Source: a virus (taxonomy: Duplodnaviria; Heunggongvirae; Uroviricota; Caudoviricetes). Taken from it: a stretch of 43,555 nucleotides of DNA. Numbering within the stretch: the first letter of the stretch is position 1; every line of letters begins with the position of its first letter. The translations under genes and the position numbers were made by a program. The stretch is taken from the IMG/VR virus record IMGVR_UViG_2563366965_000004. One strand, given 5' to 3'. Of this stretch, positions 13,044 to 19,999 are shown in pieces. The notes below the pieces were generated by a model that had not been told where the DNA came from, made no database searches, and worked only from the letters and a program-made list of their open reading frames with translations.

Positions 13044-13364
13044 ATGTCTTACATAATGCCTGAAAAAGGCCAAATGAATGAATATGGAATTGAGGCTTTC
13101 GGGATCCCGCTTACCAGTAGGCATGGAGTTGCGATGGAACTGTCTCAAATGCTACGTTTTTCTTACTATGTAGCTTCAGTTGGGCTTGTAAAATGTATTG
13201 AAAGTGTCTTCTATGATTCAGGCTCTTGCTGCTGTAATTTTGAATTTATTCCCGGGTTTAATGAGTATTCGGAGGAGGCAGAAAAAATTAGACAGTGCGC
13301 GCTACGTTCGATTGGGCAATTTGAATGGTTCGGTATGATTGAACACGGCGACATCAACGGCTAA
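13044..13364 (+). CDS. Hypothetical accessory protein (106 aa), AT-rich
   Basis: Stands alone with AGGAG RBS and its own terminator; Cys cluster (GSCCCNF); composition differs from flanking phage genes. Confidence 0.5.
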   Translation: MSYIMPEKGQMNEYGIEAFGIPLTSRHGVAMELSQMLRFSYYVASVGLVKCIESVFYDSGSCCCNFEFIPGFNEYSEEAEKIRQCALRSIGQFEWFGMIEHGDING

Positions 13365-13393
13365 GTGTTTAACTCCAATAGCAAACGAATAAA

Positions 13394-13418
13394 AGCCTCT
13401 AAGTTAGAGGTTTTTTAT
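13394..13418 (+). terminator. Rho-independent terminator
   Basis: Hairpin CCTCT-aagtt-AGAGG followed by TTTTTT. Confidence 0.45.
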
Positions 13419-13554
13419 GTCTGAAAGGTAGCATTACCAAGTCTATGGTTGCCTAGCTCAGTCAGGCTTGTATTTGGTTGCTTAGCAATCAACTCATGCG
13501 ACATGAGCGGGATCTTTCTAATTATCATTTTCGGTAAATGATTTTGGTTGCTTG

Positions 13555-13585
13555 GTTGACAAAATCGAGAAAATGCGAAAATATA
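13555..13585 (+). promoter_or_regulatory. Candidate sigma70 promoter for the 13620-15354 cassette
   Basis: Consensus TTGACA at 13555-13560 followed 17-20 bp later by an AT-rich -10-like AAATAT/TATATG region. Confidence 0.3.
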
Positions 13586-13619
13586 TGGTTTACGAATTCC
13601 AAAAAAAGCGAAACTTGAA

Positions 13620-14270
13620 ATGAGCGACAACCAGTTAGCACCTTGTTGGGAATTTCAGCCTTACCTTGCTGAAAGCAATGTTCGTCAGTTGTTAGCGGAA
13701 ATTGCTAATGTACTCGAGCAATTGTACTACCACAAACACACACTGGACAGTAACTGGTCCGAAGGTGTAAGGGCTTATGATTGGGTCAGAAATCATTTGA
13801 TTCAAAGTGAAGGGACACTGCCGGGTCTGGAAATGGTTTCGAAGGGACTGGATTATGTGGTTGCGTTAAATAAAGTGCCGCTGCAGTTCTCCAAAGATTG
13901 CATTAATAACCCGAAGAAGAAGCATCGCCTTCTTCGAAATAGGGTGGAGCATGAGCAACTTTCATTGTTCGGTGAAACTGAAGCCGAGCAAGATATTACA
14001 TGGCGGATCATCGCCGAACCATTTTTATCCGATGAAGAAGATGGCGAGCTGGAATCAACATTGCCTCGCTGGGAAGTGGCTTTAGTTGGGTTTAACGCAT
14101 ATGGTGCCCAGATCAGTATGGTTTCACACCAATCTACTGCTTCAGCGCCGCTTATGTCTCTTGATACCAACACTCTTCCGGATGAAGCTGAGATTGGCAA
14201 AGCCTCTCTTCGCCGCCGTAAAAAAGATCAAGATTTGGATGTGAGCAGTAATGGAACATCAAGTGAATGA
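13620..14270 (+). CDS. Hypothetical protein (216 aa), candidate effector/toxin partner of the ImmA-like protein
   Basis: AT-rich ORF with no motif I recognise; 3' end overlaps the next gene by 20 nt (translational coupling). Confidence 0.55.
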   Translation: MSDNQLAPCWEFQPYLAESNVRQLLAEIANVLEQLYYHKHTLDSNWSEGVRAYDWVRNHLIQSEGTLPGLEMVSKGLDYVVALNKVPLQFSKDCINNPKKKHRLLRNRVEHEQLSLFGETEAEQDITWRIIAEPFLSDEEDGELESTLPRWEVALVGFNAYGAQISMVSHQSTASAPLMSLDTNTLPDEAEIGKASLRRRKKDQDLDVSSNGTSSE

Positions 14271-15354
14271 CTTTGCTGAGTATCGTGGGGATAAGCTCAA
14301 ATTAGCCAGAATGGCTGTTGGGCTCTCCTGCGAAGAGTTAGCGGAGAAAATTGGTAAAACAAAACAATTCGTTAGCAAATTGGAAAAAGGGTTTAAACCA
14401 TCAGAACAGTTGTTAGAATTAATCTCATCTGCGCTGATGATTAAATCTGATTTCCTATTTACTGAACGAAAATATGCTTTAGAAAGCGATGTTTGCCATT
14501 TTCGGAGTAAAAAATCGAGAACCCAAACATTAACCAATAGTGTTCTGGCAAGGGCGGAGATTCTTAACATTATAATCTCTGCCGTTGAGGGAGAAATCGA
14601 GTTTCCTGATGTTTTCATACCTGAGCACCCCGGTGCTGAATTGCTGACTCCAAATGATATTGAACGTGTAGCGGAAGACTGCAGAAGAGCATGGAACTTA
14701 GGGCTGGGACCTATATCCTCAATGGTCAAACTGGCTGAGAGTTTGGGGGTTATTGTTGCTCATGTGACAGGAGTGGATGACCGCGTAGATGCTTTTACTG
14801 TTCATAACAACAGGCCAGTAATCATCCGAAATAACGTCAAAAAGAGTATATGCAGATTCCGATCAGATTTAGGTCACGAATTGGGGCACTTGGTTATGCA
14901 CGAAGGTATAACCACAGGAGATAAAGTGACTGAATCGCAAGCGGATCGTTTTTCAAGCGCGTTGCTAGTTCCTCGATTGTCCTTTATTAAAGAGTTTCCC
15001 CGTATACGAGGAAGACAGTTCGATTGGAACGCCCTAGTTGAGTTTAAGCTTCGGTGGAAGATTAGTCTTAAAATGTGCATTTACCGAGCAACAACTCTAG
15101 GCCTGCTGACGCAGGAGCAGGCAAGAACAGGTTATATGCATTTGAACTCTAAAGGATATACGAAAGTTGAACCAGGAGATGAATTTATTCGCCCGGAAGA
15201 ACCGAGTATGTTAGCTGAGGCGATTGAAATGCTGGATGATGCAACATGGATGAGCATTCTCATGAAAACTGGTTTAAGCCAGGAGTTGGTTAGGGAGTTA
15301 TTCTCGGTAAACCGCCCACTGTCAAATCCAAGAAATCTACTTCAACTGGTTTGA
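14251..15354 (+). CDS. HTH-XRE / ImmA-IrrE family zinc metallopeptidase fusion protein
   Basis: N-terminal HTH (LSCEELAEKIGKTKQFVSKLEKG) and HEXXH zinc-binding motif (HELGHLVMHE) in the COG2856/ImmA-IrrE arrangement; 367 aa. Confidence 0.8.
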   Translation: MEHQVNDFAEYRGDKLKLARMAVGLSCEELAEKIGKTKQFVSKLEKGFKPSEQLLELISSALMIKSDFLFTERKYALESDVCHFRSKKSRTQTLTNSVLARAEILNIIISAVEGEIEFPDVFIPEHPGAELLTPNDIERVAEDCRRAWNLGLGPISSMVKLAESLGVIVAHVTGVDDRVDAFTVHNNRPVIIRNNVKKSICRFRSDLGHELGHLVMHEGITTGDKVTESQADRFSSALLVPRLSFIKEFPRIRGRQFDWNALVEFKLRWKISLKMCIYRATTLGLLTQEQARTGYMHLNSKGYTKVEPGDEFIRPEEPSMLAEAIEMLDDATWMSILMKTGLSQELVRELFSVNRPLSNPRNLLQLV

Positions 15355-15368
15355 CTCAAAGCTTGTAA

Positions 15369-15396
15369 TAAACCCGCTATATGCGGGTTTTTTCTT
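15369..15396 (+). terminator. Rho-independent terminator
   Basis: AACCCGC-tatat-GCGGGTT hairpin followed by a T-run. Confidence 0.6.
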
Positions 15397-15514
15397 TCTG
15401 GTAGCGCGCTGTGGTAACGCTGTGCCTCCAGCGCTCGCTGAGGCGCTGGTGCGTGCTAATTTGCCGGAGCTTTGTCAGCAGAAACAAATAGCGGCGTAAT
15501 AAAACATTGCTAAT

Positions 15515-15545
15515 TCAACCCGCTACGGCGGGTTTTCTTTTTTTA
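15515..15545 (+). terminator. Rho-independent terminator (second of a tandem pair)
   Basis: AACCCGC-tac-GGCGGGTT hairpin followed by TTTTCTTTTTTT. Confidence 0.55.
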
Positions 15546-15606: not shown

Positions 15607-15626
15607 TACTGTATAAAAACACAGTA
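15607..15626. promoter_or_regulatory. LexA (SOS) box
   Basis: TACTGTATAAAAACACAGTA: perfect CTGT-N8-ACAG palindrome, 19 nt upstream of the dinI-like start, overlapping the likely promoter. Confidence 0.7.
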
Positions 15627-15995: not shown

Positions 15996-16244
15996 GTGAG
16001 TGATTCAGCTTTGCAAACGTCAGAAGACAACTGGTATGACATTGTAAGAAGGTCTGACGGCTGCGTGGTGTTTAGCTTTCCTTCATCGGGCAGGCATCTA
16101 ATTTATCGCGTCAATGGCATGGTTTCTATGCGGCCTTTGCTGGATGATGAAGAGGTCTTTACTCCTAATGGTTTTATGCAATTTATCCGCCGTCTCGGCT
16201 ACCGGGTAACACCACCTTCTGATAATATGAAATCGACGGTCTGA
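15996..16244 (+). CDS. Hypothetical nin-region protein (82 aa)
   Basis: GTG start with AGGGAG RBS 9 nt upstream. Confidence 0.4.
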   Translation: MSDSALQTSEDNWYDIVRRSDGCVVFSFPSSGRHLIYRVNGMVSMRPLLDDEEVFTPNGFMQFIRRLGYRVTPPSDNMKSTV

Positions 16245-18787: not shown

Positions 18788-19105
18788 ATGGCAAAGCGTA
18801 TGAATGACGACCACAAAATTGTAGGCCTGTCCTGGTTAGTCCTGCTCGGCATTGCATGCTGGGGCGGTTTAGTTCGCTACCTGATCGACGTAAAGCAGAA
18901 TAAAGCGACATGGAGCTGGATAAACGCGCTGGCACAGATCGCTGTCTCCGGCTTTACCGGTTTGATTGGCGGGTTGATAAGCGTGGAGAGTGGGTTGAGT
19001 TTTCACATGATCCTTGTCACGTCCGGCATTAGCGGGGCGATGGGTTCAGTGGCTCTGACCTATTTCTGGGAACGCTTGACGGGGATGAAGAATGCAAACC
19101 AGTGA
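18788..19105 (+). CDS. Holin
   Basis: 105 aa from ATG 18788 (GGAGG RBS); hydrophobic helices (LSWLVLLGIACWGGLV; IAVSGFTGLIGGLI; ILVTSGISGAMGSVAL); directly precedes the endolysin. Confidence 0.7.
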   Translation: MAKRMNDDHKIVGLSWLVLLGIACWGGLVRYLIDVKQNKATWSWINALAQIAVSGFTGLIGGLISVESGLSFHMILVTSGISGAMGSVALTYFWERLTGMKNANQ

Positions 19106-19532
19106 TAAAGGCATTGCCCTGATCAAAGAGTTCGAAGGTTGCAAGCTCACTGCCTATCAGGACAGCGTCGGCGTTTGGACGATCGGTTATGGCTGGACTC
19201 AGCCCGTCGACGGGAAACCAATCCGTGCCGGGATGACAATTAAGCAGGAAACGGCAGAACGCCTGCTGAAGACAGGAATGGTCAGTTACGAAAGTGACGT
19301 GTCACGACTGGTTAAAGTTGGCCTGACTCAGGGGCAATTCGATGCCCTGGTGTCGTTCACGTATAACCTCGGTGCGCGGTCATTGTCGACATCGACTCTC
19401 CTGCGAAAACTCAACGCCGGAGATTACGCTGGTGCAGCCGATGAGTTCCTGCGCTGGAATAAAGCTGGTGGGAAGGTGCTGAATGGGCTGACACGTCGGC
19501 GGGAGGCAGAGCGAGCTCTGTTCCTGTCATGA
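19092..19532 (+). CDS. Endolysin, phage lysozyme (GH24-like)
   Basis: [26 protein letters not shown] catalytic Glu/Asp/Thr motif of T4/P22-type lysozymes. Confidence 0.9.
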
Positions 19533-19999
19533 TTAGCGCACTGGTTAAGCGTTACTGGCTGCAGTTGCTGGTGCTGGCGTTAATCGGCGCACTGGCTTTC
19601 TTCGTGAACCACTACCGCGACAACGCCATCACTTACAGAGACCAGCGCGATAAGGCCACTGAGAAACTCCTCCTGGCGACCGCCACCATTAAAGACATGC
19701 AGACCCGCCAGCGTGATGTCGCTGCACTGGATGCCAAATACACCGGAGAACTGGCTGATGCGAAAGAAACCATTGAGCGTCTGCATAGCGATGTCATTGC
19801 TGGCCGTAAGCGGCTGCAGCTCAACGCAAACTGTCCCGCGAACGGAACGACCAGCACCGGCGGCCTGGGCGATGTTACCGGCCCCCGACTTACTGACTCC
19901 GCTGAACGGGATTATTTCACCCTCAGAGAGCGAATCGTCACAGTGACGAAACAGGTTGGATATTTGCAGGAATACATCAAAGAGCAGTGCTTAAATTGA
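19529..19999 (+). CDS. Rz-like i-spanin
   Basis: N-terminal membrane anchor, coiled-coil body, position after the endolysin, and an embedded Rz1 reading frame. Confidence 0.75.
19758..19946 (+). CDS. Rz1-like o-spanin lipoprotein (embedded in Rz, +1 frame)
   Basis: Lipobox LLAVSGC, Pro-rich mature region; ATG 19758 with GGAGA RBS. Confidence 0.7.

What the first reader, a model, noticed from the sequence alone, without database searches (positions are those of the whole stretch)
13044..15396. AT-rich accessory cassette: unknown 216-aa protein translationally coupled to an HTH-XRE/ImmA-IrrE metallopeptidase fusion
Between the replication module and the nin region sits a compositionally distinct insertion: a standalone 106-aa gene with its own terminator, then a candidate promoter (TTGACA at 13555), then two overlapping genes (13620-14270 and 14251-15354) closed by a strong terminator. 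The second protein joins an XRE-type HTH to a HEXXH zinc peptidase (HELGHLVMHE) of the ImmA/IrrE (COG2856) type. That architecture recurs as the regulator/antitoxin half of two-gene toxin-antitoxin, abortive-infection and anti-repressor modules. The upstream 216-aa partner has no motif I recognise and is the candidate effector. Placement at a classic moron site with its own transcription signals fits a self-contained accessory system.
Basis: partly seen in the sequence, partly recalled or inferred. Interest (0 to 1): 0.8.

Follow-up and report, generated by a model that had tools for sequence, protein, structure and literature searches.

The report
RosmerTA defence module in prophage
This is a two-gene toxin-antitoxin anti-phage module of the already catalogued RosmerTA type, carried as a self-contained accessory cassette in an E. 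coli lambda-like prophage, so it is ordinary in kind, although I found no experimental test of its particular toxin family.

Summary
Window 13553-15390 contains a conserved promoter leader, two genes that overlap by 20 nt (216 aa and 367 aa), and a good terminator. The region has low GC and lies between the replication genes and the nin/Q genes of an E. coli lambdoid prophage.

The pair is not unknown. PADLOC models name it RmrT (PDLC03929, E=2.4e-26, full length) and RmrA (PDLC03943, E=1.6e-106), which together make RosmerTA. RmrA is 29% identical (E=3e-35) to the experimentally verified RmrA of E. coli OLC-716. It keeps the XRE HTH and the M78 HEXXH peptidase.

In 8 of 8 distant relatives the toxin gene is followed directly by an RmrA-type gene. 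Both genes are under strong purifying selection.

The 106-aa gene is a separate unit, not part of the module.

Verdict: a known system type. I found no experimental work on this toxin subfamily's activity.

The parts
13553..13619 (+). Promoter/operator leader of the module. It contains the -35 TTGACA at 13556-13561 and a 28-nt tandem direct repeat (13553-13580 and 13586-13613, 79% identical, 33-nt spacing) that is a candidate pair of binding sites for the RmrA HTH.
   Evidence: Homology with the ~80%-identical modules in other prophages starts exactly here; upstream sequence is unrelated. The leader is 88-93% identical although synonymous sites in the genes are saturated. The repeat was found by the repeat finder. 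The promoter was not called by the consensus scanner because the -10 is weak. Operator function is inferred.
13620..14270 (+). rmrT, the putative toxin/effector (216 aa). It is soluble and acidic (pI 4.9), with an alpha/beta core (residues ~8-171) and an unstructured charged C-terminal tail (172-216).
   Evidence: PADLOC RmrT PDLC03929 E=2.4e-26 over the full length, and phrog_5786 E=6.8e-82. There is no Pfam or NCBIfam match. An exhaustive HMMER search found 89 relatives, and all 82 that were aligned hit PDLC03929. AlphaFold2 model pLDDT 84.4, pTM 0.75. No transmembrane segment. dN/dS is about 0.06.
14251..15354 (+). rmrA, the putative antitoxin/autorepressor (367 aa). It has an N-terminal XRE HTH (16-62), an M78 ImmA/IrrE Zn-peptidase domain (about 176-280, HELGH at 209-213) and a C-terminal region.
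   Evidence: PADLOC RmrA PDLC03943 E=1.6e-106. Pfam HTH_3 and Peptidase_M78. 29% identity, E=3e-35 to the verified E. coli OLC-716 RmrA. NCBIfam spr1629-family antitoxin E=6.8e-46, below the equivalog cutoff. HELGH and the downstream motif are conserved in 9 of 9 partner proteins.
15370..15390 (+). Intrinsic terminator that closes the bicistronic unit.
   Evidence: 8-bp stem with 5 G-C pairs followed by TTTTCTTTCT. dG -12.8 kcal/mol, z -4.2, and 0 of 200 shuffles fold as well.

Best explanation
Window 13553-15390 is a RosmerTA-type toxin-antitoxin module carried as a moron in an E. coli lambdoid prophage.

Proposed mechanism: a dedicated promoter (TTGACA at 13556) drives one rmrT-rmrA mRNA. 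The 20-nt overlap couples the two genes, so RmrA is made whenever RmrT is made. RmrA neutralises RmrT, by binding and/or by its Zn-peptidase activity, possibly with help from ClpXP. Through its XRE HTH it probably represses its own promoter at the two 28-nt repeats. Phage infection, or loss of the prophage, lowers or inactivates RmrA. This frees RmrT, a soluble enzyme-like alpha/beta protein with a conserved polar set (D43, E110, Q113, R129, E133). RmrT then arrests the cell, which aborts the infection.

Shown here: gene anatomy, family assignments, homology of RmrA to a verified antitoxin, obligate toxin-first synteny, purifying selection, and conservation of the leader.

Inferred: toxicity, neutralisation, autoregulation, the trigger, Clp involvement, and defence itself.
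For: PADLOC assigns both proteins to RosmerTA. RmrA is homologous over about 300 residues to the verified OLC-716 RmrA. That sequence, and the report that delta-rmrA could not be transformed, come from Millman et al., bioRxiv 10.1101/2022.05.11.491447.

RmrA also matches the spr1629/RipB antitoxin family over its full length. HEXXH and the third-ligand motif are intact here and in all 9 partner proteins checked.

In 8 of 8 distant RmrT-family members an HTH+M78 gene of 363-384 aa follows directly on the same strand, either overlapping or within 10 nt. The contexts differ: a prophage lysis/terminase junction, a Mu-like phage, and next to SNIPE/T5orf172 or SoFic.

About 235 of 5426 complete E. 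coli genomes carry an ~80% copy of exactly 13553-15354 at the equivalent prophage slot. Selection is strongly purifying and the leader is constrained. The leader contains a tandem 28-nt repeat. The unit is bounded by terminators.

The literature supports the general model. RosmerTA protects against phages. Rosmer-type antitoxins are essential, and the toxins make ClpX or ClpP essential (PMC13566846, PMC12795458, bioRxiv 10.1101/2020.05.25.114553).
Against: The toxin has no detectable sequence or profile similarity to the verified OLC-716 RmrT (BLASTP E=0.93, hhalign probability 0.2%). It also shows none to another RmrT family. Toxicity therefore rests only on guilt by association.

I found no experiment on the PDLC03929 family.

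In the related PD-lambda-2 system, the Xre-peptidase protein itself was the toxic component and the upstream gene rescued it (PMC9519451), so the roles could be inverted here.

The -10 element is weak and the scanner did not call the promoter. By eye I see no obvious Shine-Dalgarno sequence before rmrT.

No sequenced free phage in the INPHARED set encodes the toxin. A prophage-stabilising (addiction) role fits the data as well as defence does.
Confidence: 0.78

Rival explanations
1. The same two-gene TA module acts mainly as an addiction or stabilisation device for the prophage, by post-segregational killing on excision or loss, and is not an anti-phage system.
For: The module always sits on mobile elements. 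In E. coli E101 a Rosmer-type prophage TA is lost together with the prophage when clpP is repressed. Neighbours such as hokD are classical addiction genes. No phage-defence data exist for this toxin family.
Against: Two tested RosmerTA systems, OLC-716 and Gordonia phage Kita, do protect against phages. Some relatives sit next to other defence genes such as SNIPE/T5orf172, SoFic and SIR2. The two roles are not mutually exclusive.
Confidence: 0.2
2. The roles are inverted. The HTH-peptidase fusion would be the toxic or effector component, for example by cleaving a host or phage protein, and the 216-aa protein would be its inhibitor or sensor.
For: In PD-lambda-2, overexpressed Xre-peptidase (component B) was toxic and was rescued by the upstream component A. 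Early comparative genomics listed COG2856 proteins as candidate toxins with XRE antitoxins (PMC2701414, seen only by title and abstract, plus my own recollection). The peptidase catalytic motif is strictly conserved in all partners.
Against: For canonical RosmerTA, delta-rmrA could not be obtained, which is consistent with RmrA being the antitoxin. rmrA and ripB are essential in Tn-seq and genetic studies because of the upstream gene. RmrA here is a full-length homologue of those antitoxins.
Confidence: 0.07
3. This is not a TA system but a regulatory switch of the ImmR/ImmA, DdrO/IrrE or CapH/CapP kind. RmrA would sense damage or infection and cleave itself or another repressor to change prophage or host gene expression, with the 216-aa protein as a non-toxic cargo.
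For: The domains are the same (XRE HTH plus M78 peptidase). There are weaker PADLOC hits to capP and capH. dinI with a perfect LexA box lies 250 bp downstream, so the neighbourhood is damage-responsive.
Against: In those systems the repressor and the protease are separate proteins, and the regulated genes are a larger operon. Here the two domains are fused. The unit is a closed bicistron with its own terminator, and the upstream 200-aa gene is the invariant partner across very different contexts. This is the TA signature.
Confidence: 0.05
4. Sub-hypothesis on the effector: RmrT of this family is a divergent PD-(D/E)xK-like nuclease that degrades DNA or RNA when released.
Confidence: 0.2

Closest known systems
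RosmerTA of E. coli OLC-716 (Millman et al. 2022; verified RmrT/RmrA)
   Same: Same two-gene order (toxin first), with a partner of similar size (about 200-240 aa). RmrA has the same architecture and is homologous (29% identity over about 300 aa, E=3e-35). Both are found in E. coli.
   Different: The toxin is unrelated in sequence (BLASTP E=0.93, hhalign probability 0.2%) and matches a different PADLOC RmrT model (PDLC03929 rather than PDLC03935). The RmrA subfamily also differs (PDLC03943 rather than PDLC03949).
RmrTA of Gordonia phage Kita (Ernits et al. 2023, PMC10440598)
   Same: Phage-borne RosmerTA with an ImmA-type antitoxin. It gives narrow-spectrum defence in E. coli.
   Different: The Kita toxin has a C-terminal membrane segment and depolarises the membrane. 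The window's RmrT has no hydrophobic segment (maximum KD19 0.84, pI 4.9), so that mechanism is unlikely here.
RipAB (Spr1630/Spr1629) of Streptococcus pneumoniae (PMC12795458)
   Same: RmrA matches the NCBIfam spr1629-family repressor/antitoxin model over its full length (E=6.8e-46). Gene order is toxin first. The antitoxin is an XRE-ImmA fusion.
   Different: The score is below the equivalog cutoff (157 vs 335 bits). The RipA toxin targets the DnaN sliding clamp and depends on ClpX.
E. coli E101 prophage TA that makes clpP essential (Rousset et al., bioRxiv 10.1101/2020.05.25.114553)
   Same: A prophage-borne pair in E. coli made of a hypothetical toxin and a downstream antidote, later classed as Rosmer-type. 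It suggests a testable ClpXP dependence.
   Different: The accessions differ (WP_001179380.1/WP_000481765.1 there, WP_016236994.1/WP_016236995.1 here). The suppressor T46S fits the OLC-716 toxin, which has T46, and not this one, which has an invariant W46. It is therefore probably a different toxin family; this is an inference.
PD-lambda-2 (Vassallo et al. 2022, PMC9519451)
   Same: An Xre-peptidase fusion with an upstream partner gene that defends E. coli.
   Different: PD-lambda-2 has three components. Its upstream gene is HigB-like, the peptidase fusion is the toxic part, and a third P4-antitoxin-like gene is needed for defence. Here there are two genes and the partner is not HigB-like.
ImmR/ImmA (ICEBs1), DdrO/IrrE (Deinococcus), CapH/CapP (CBASS regulation)
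   Same: An M78/COG2856 HEXXH peptidase paired functionally with an XRE HTH.
   Different: In those systems the repressor and protease are separate polypeptides that control other genes. Here the two are fused in one 367-aa protein and paired with a candidate toxin.

Membership tests
RosmerTA (RmrT/RmrA) | RmrA: a single protein of about 360-400 aa with an N-terminal XRE HTH and an M78 ImmA/IrrE Zn-peptidase carrying HEXXH | tested here: met
   Pfam HTH_3 at 16-62 and Peptidase_M78 at 176-280. HELGH at 209-213 followed by ESQADRFSSALLVP. PADLOC RmrA PDLC03943 E=1.6e-106 over positions 2-341 of 370.
RosmerTA (RmrT/RmrA) | RmrA is homologous to an experimentally verified RmrA | tested here: met
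   29% identity and 46% positives over residues 11-308, E=3e-35, against the OLC-716 RmrA from Millman Table S2.
RosmerTA (RmrT/RmrA) | An adjacent, co-oriented small partner gene belonging to a catalogued RmrT family | tested here: met
   PADLOC RmrT PDLC03929 E=2.4e-26, residues 7-207 against profile positions 5-193 of 198. All 82 family members hit the same model. The two genes overlap by 20 nt.
RosmerTA (RmrT/RmrA) | The toxin family is consistently linked to RmrA across genomes | tested here: met
   8 of 8 distant representatives have an HTH+M78 gene directly downstream. The closer E. coli copies do as well.
RosmerTA (RmrT/RmrA) | The toxin is homologous to a verified RmrT. This is not strictly defining, because RmrT families are diverse. 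| tested here: not met
   BLASTP E=0.93. hhalign of the 82-sequence profile against OLC-716 RmrT gives probability 0.2%. Against a PDLC03933-family RmrT the probability is 0.1%.
RosmerTA (RmrT/RmrA) | RmrT is toxic and is neutralised by RmrA | not testable with these tools
   This needs expression assays. There is only indirect support from other Rosmer families.
RosmerTA (RmrT/RmrA) | The pair protects against phage infection | not testable with these tools
   This needs plaque assays. I found no published test of the PDLC03929 family.
Membrane-depolarising RmrT (Kita D5 type) | A predicted transmembrane or C-terminal membrane segment in the toxin | tested here: not met
   Maximum Kyte-Doolittle 19-residue mean is 0.84, GRAVY is -0.54 and pI is 4.9. 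The C-terminal 45 residues are charged and unstructured.
PD-(D/E)xK nuclease superfamily | Confident fold match to the alpha-beta-beta-beta-alpha-beta core | tested here: inconclusive
PD-(D/E)xK nuclease superfamily | Conserved D ... (D/E)-x-K catalytic residues on the second and third core strands | tested here: not met
   The strands at 80-83 and 86-92 have the consensus VPxRF with no conserved acidic residue. The conserved acidic residues (D43, E110, E133) lie elsewhere.
ImmR/ImmA-type or CapH/CapP-type regulatory pair | A separate XRE repressor gene as the substrate of a stand-alone M78 protease | tested here: not met
   HTH and peptidase are fused in one ORF. The upstream partner has no HTH and no Pfam domain.

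The most novel reading that the evidence does not exclude
The PDLC03929 RmrT family could be a previously undescribed enzymatic toxin fold, at most very distantly PD-(D/E)xK-like, with a new cellular target. In addition, the rare 106-aa gene upstream could be a functionally linked third component, such as a self-immunity factor or modulator made during the prophage's own lytic cycle. The basis for the second idea is that its homologues sit directly upstream of two RosmerTA cassettes with unrelated toxins.
Probability: 0.1. Interest if true: 0.6.

Novelty: already known. Interest (0 to 1): 0.27.

Why it matters
The importance is modest. The finding shows that a defence-system scan would already label this locus RosmerTA, so it is not a new kind of system.

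It has three uses:

- It gives a native E. coli example of a RosmerTA whose toxin is soluble and shows no detectable similarity to the two RmrT sequences I could compare (OLC-716 and a PDLC03933-family toxin). It also lacks the membrane segment of the Kita toxin. No RmrT mechanism is established except membrane depolarisation (Kita) and DnaN targeting (RipA), so this family is an accessible entry point.
- It documents the slot between the replication genes and nin/Q of lambdoid prophages as a cassette-exchange hotspot. The module boundary falls exactly at its own -35 hexamer.
- It yields a concrete candidate operator: two 28-nt repeats spaced three helical turns apart. This can be used to test RmrA autoregulation.

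Tried and rejected
- **Free-phage genomes.** Megablast of the cassette and tblastn of RmrT and of the 106-aa protein against 50,697 phage records found nothing. Only RmrA has distant phage homologues at 26-35% identity.
- **Species-representative genomes.** The genome-contig scan failed with the 82-sequence alignment because no stretch was conserved enough. With the 13-sequence alignment it gave only 2 loci. I switched to exact-sequence contig look-ups.
- **First AlphaFold model.** Built from 13 close sequences, it was poor (pLDDT 65). I replaced it with an 82-sequence model (pLDDT 84).
- **PDB sequence search with the RmrT profile.** Nothing was found. RmrA matched only through its HTH.
- **Pfam scan of all 82 RmrT relatives at E≤1.** Only scattered single-member noise appeared.
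- **Millman's supplementary tables.** I searched them for O55/O157/albertii entries to see whether this subfamily was in the original RosmerTA list. The held part of that table has no such entries, so the result is inconclusive.
- **O157:H7 RB-TnSeq preprint.** The held text no longer mentions Rosmer.
- **Did the cassette insertion create the methyltransferase remnant?** Rejected, because sibling prophages without the cassette carry the same scar.
- **Is the 106-aa gene part of the module?** Rejected as a general rule, but see the passing note on its link to two different Rosmer cassettes.
Full report
**1. What is in the sequence**

The last two overlap by 20 nt. The rmrA ATG at 14251 lies inside the end of rmrT, whose TGA is at 14268-14270.

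GC content is 0.42 for the 106-aa gene, 0.37 for the spacer, 0.46 for the 216-aa gene and 0.43 for the 367-aa gene. The window as a whole is 0.51, and the flanking DUF550 and DUF1367 genes are about 0.55.

A terminator hairpin with a U-run follows the second gene at 15370-15390 (dG -12.8 kcal/mol, z -4.2). The 106-aa gene has its own hairpin and U-run at about 13391-13415 (dG -11.1, z -4.0).

The -10 is weak, so the consensus scanner did not report a promoter there.

**2. Where the window comes from**

The 2.4-kb stretch is 99.9-100% identical to five complete E. coli chromosomes. In the RefSeq annotation of one of them (NZ_CP104681.1) the gene order is:

- repressor / Cro-like / YdaT
- replication protein, then replication protein P
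- wHTH, Ead/Ea22, DUF550
- hypothetical (106 aa), hypothetical (216 aa), 'helix-turn-helix domain-containing protein' (367 aa)
- a C-terminal fragment of a DNA methyltransferase
- DinI, DUF1367, NinG, Q, then the lysis genes and terminase

So the placement between the replication module and the nin/Q region of a lambdoid prophage is correct.

**3. Identity of the pair**

Pfam finds HTH_3 (residues 16-62) and Peptidase_M78 (176-280) in the 367-aa protein. It finds nothing in the other two proteins.

PADLOC-DB places the 216-aa protein in RmrT model PDLC03929 (E=2.4e-26, full length). It places the 367-aa protein in RmrA model PDLC03943 (E=1.6e-106). PHROGs also holds both families: phrog_5786 (unknown function) and phrog_2439 (transcriptional regulator).

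RosmerTA was defined by Millman et al. as an antitoxin with a Zn-peptidase plus a toxin of unknown function. Their delta-rmrA mutant could not be transformed (bioRxiv 10.1101/2022.05.11.491447).

I took the verified E. coli OLC-716 pair from their Table S2 and compared it with the window's proteins:

- RmrA is 29% identical over about 300 residues (E=3e-35).
- The toxins show no similarity (E=0.93) and hit different PADLOC RmrT models.

This fits the description of Rosmer as one conserved antitoxin hub paired with many unrelated toxins (PMC10440598).

RmrA also matches the NCBIfam 'spr1629 family repressor/antitoxin' model end to end (E=6.8e-46, below the equivalog cutoff). That is the RipB antitoxin of S. 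pneumoniae.

**4. Module boundaries and evidence of function**

About 235 further E. coli genomes carry an ~80% identical copy of window 13553-15354 only. In a Rac-like prophage and in an O55:H7 prophage this copy sits at the equivalent slot, after hokD and before DUF968/RusA/Q. The 106-aa gene is absent there.

Homology starts exactly at GGTTGACA, and the DNA upstream of that point is unrelated.

Between these copies the synonymous sites are at or near saturation. For rmrT, dS is 1.2-1.4 and dN/dS is about 0.06. For rmrA, pS is 0.78 and pN is 0.045. Yet the 67-nt leader remains 88-93% identical.

The leader is itself a tandem repeat. TGGTTGACAAAATCGAGAAAATGCGAAA (13553-13580) and TGGTTTACGAATTCCAAAAAAAGCGAAA (13586-13613) are 79% identical with 33-nt spacing. 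I read this as a promoter overlapped by two operator sites for the RmrA HTH. That reading is an inference.

**5. Co-occurrence test**

The word-indexed search found only close relatives in Enterobacterales (52% identity or more), all named 'hypothetical'. The exhaustive HMMER profile search found 89 representatives, most about 200 aa long. All 82 that I aligned hit PDLC03929.

For eight diverse representatives I fetched the encoding contigs. In 8 of 8 the next gene on the same strand is a 363-384-aa HTH+Peptidase_M78 protein, overlapping or within 10 nt. In one further place the downstream gene is cut short by the contig end.

The contexts are unrelated to one another: a prophage lysis/terminase junction, a Mu-like phage after Mor, beside SNIPE/T5orf172, beside SoFic, and others. 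All of these partners keep HELGH and the E-x-QA(N/D)xF(A/S)S motif.

**6. What the toxin might do**

The protein is acidic (pI 4.9) and hydrophilic, with no possible transmembrane segment. The membrane-depolarising mechanism shown for the Kita phage RmrT therefore does not transfer to it.

With the 82-sequence alignment, AlphaFold2 gives a confident model (pLDDT 84.4, pTM 0.75). It has two long N-terminal helices, a mixed sheet of six strands with an intervening helix, and an unstructured charged tail from about residue 172.

Family-wide conservation is concentrated in D43 (93%), G49, E110 (90%), Q113 (89%), R129 (87%), E133 (86% acidic), W46/W128 and the VPxRF strand. That pattern looks like an active site or a specific binding surface.

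Other searches gave nothing:

- BFVD: no match.
- PDB sequence search: no relative.
- Pfam scan of all members: only noise.
- Profile comparison with two other RmrT families: negative.

I therefore hold 'nuclease-like enzyme' at about 0.2. Otherwise I regard the biochemical activity as open.

**7. Mechanism proposed**

- A dedicated promoter gives one mRNA.
- The 20-nt overlap couples RmrA synthesis to RmrT synthesis.
- RmrA neutralises RmrT and represses the promoter through its HTH.
- Infection, or loss of the element, depletes or inactivates RmrA, and free RmrT arrests the cell.

Work on other Rosmer-type systems suggests a role for ClpXP. A prophage TA makes clpP essential in E. coli E101. 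RipB needs ClpX to counter RipA, which targets DnaN. In three Pectobacteriaceae strains that carry RosmerTA, rmrA and the ClpX gene are essential.

The E101 toxin is probably of the OLC-716 family and not this one. Its suppressor is T46S, OLC-716 RmrT has T46, and the window's protein has an invariant W46.

One caveat concerns the roles. In PD-lambda-2 the Xre-peptidase protein was the toxic one. The assignment here rests on homology of RmrA to proven antitoxins, not on any test of this toxin.

**8. The 106-aa gene**

It has no Pfam, PADLOC or NCBIfam match. It is very rare, with five clusters among 5.8 billion proteins. In complete E. coli genomes it occurs only in the five that carry the whole block.

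Its 99%-identical copies are followed by the same RmrTA in 6 of 6 places, in prophages with different replication modules. Its diverged copies behave differently:

- An 85% copy is followed by unrelated small ORFs.
- An 82% copy is followed by a different RosmerTA, with the toxin in PDLC03933 and the antitoxin in PDLC03947.

Homology stops at the stop codon or just after the gene's own terminator.

The simplest reading is that the gene flanks a slot where cassettes are exchanged. A functional link to Rosmer systems cannot be excluded with only three lineages.

**9. The right-hand junction**

Positions 15401-15499 translate to ...CGNAVPPALAEALVRANL..., which I recognise as the C-terminal motif of C5 cytosine methyltransferases (own knowledge). 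GC here is 0.59, and RefSeq marks it as a truncated methyltransferase.

Sibling prophages that lack the cassette carry the same scar, or a slightly longer one, directly after replication protein P. Others break at different points. The scar is therefore older than the cassette's arrival, and the region is hypervariable.

**10. Verdict**

The system is a catalogued kind (RosmerTA), and both components are covered by existing defence-database models, so I rate it 'already known'.

What remains open is the biochemical activity and trigger of this toxin subfamily. I found no experimental work on either.

Noticed in passing
window 13044-13364 (plus hairpin at about 13391-13415); L019 4001-4321; L020 1012-1332: The 106-aa ORF is a very rare protein with no family annotation beyond phrog_29216. 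Its homologues lie directly upstream of two different RosmerTA cassettes with unrelated toxins (PDLC03929 here, PDLC03933 in L020). A third lineage has no Rosmer cassette downstream. It either marks a cassette-exchange slot or is functionally linked to Rosmer systems.
   Followed up: partly
window 15401-15499: A C-terminal remnant of a C5 cytosine DNA methyltransferase (…CGNAVPPALAEALVRANLPELCQQKQIAA*) at backbone-like GC of 0.59. The same scar occurs in sibling prophages that lack the RmrTA cassette, so it predates the cassette's arrival.
   Followed up: partly
window 15370-15390 and 15517-15534; also L002/L003 just upstream of their RmrTA promoter, and L019 downstream of its 106-aa gene: Very similar terminator hairpins of the form AACCCGC-loop-GCGGGTT followed by a T-run recur at several cassette junctions in this accessory region and in related prophages. 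They might serve as short homology patches for cassette exchange.
   Followed up: no
window 15607-15626: TACTGTATAAAAACACAGTA is a perfect CTG-N10-CAG palindrome that matches the LexA (SOS) box consensus from my own knowledge. It sits just upstream of the prophage dinI gene (15633/15646-15878). It occurs once in the window and in 0 of 100 shuffles.
   Followed up: partly
L003 5429-6915; L011/L012; L013: Homologous RmrTA pairs sit next to other defence or TA genes. These are a SIR2-family protein and hokD in an O55:H7 prophage, a SNIPE/T5orf172 protein and an N6/N4 methyltransferase in metagenomic contigs, and a SoFic-like Fic protein in another contig. This is consistent with defence-island or hotspot behaviour.
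   Followed up: no
window about 18877-19989 (L001 14878-15990): Between the antiterminator Q gene and the holin genes, a classic moron position, RefSeq annotates a small hypothetical gene followed by an 'SDH family Clp fold serine proteinase'. This may be another accessory cassette. I did not examine it.
   Followed up: no
window 15996-16244: An 82-aa ORF (phrog_340, unknown function) lies between dinI and the DUF1367 gene. It also has lower GC (0.46) and is conserved with dinI in sibling prophages.
   Followed up: no
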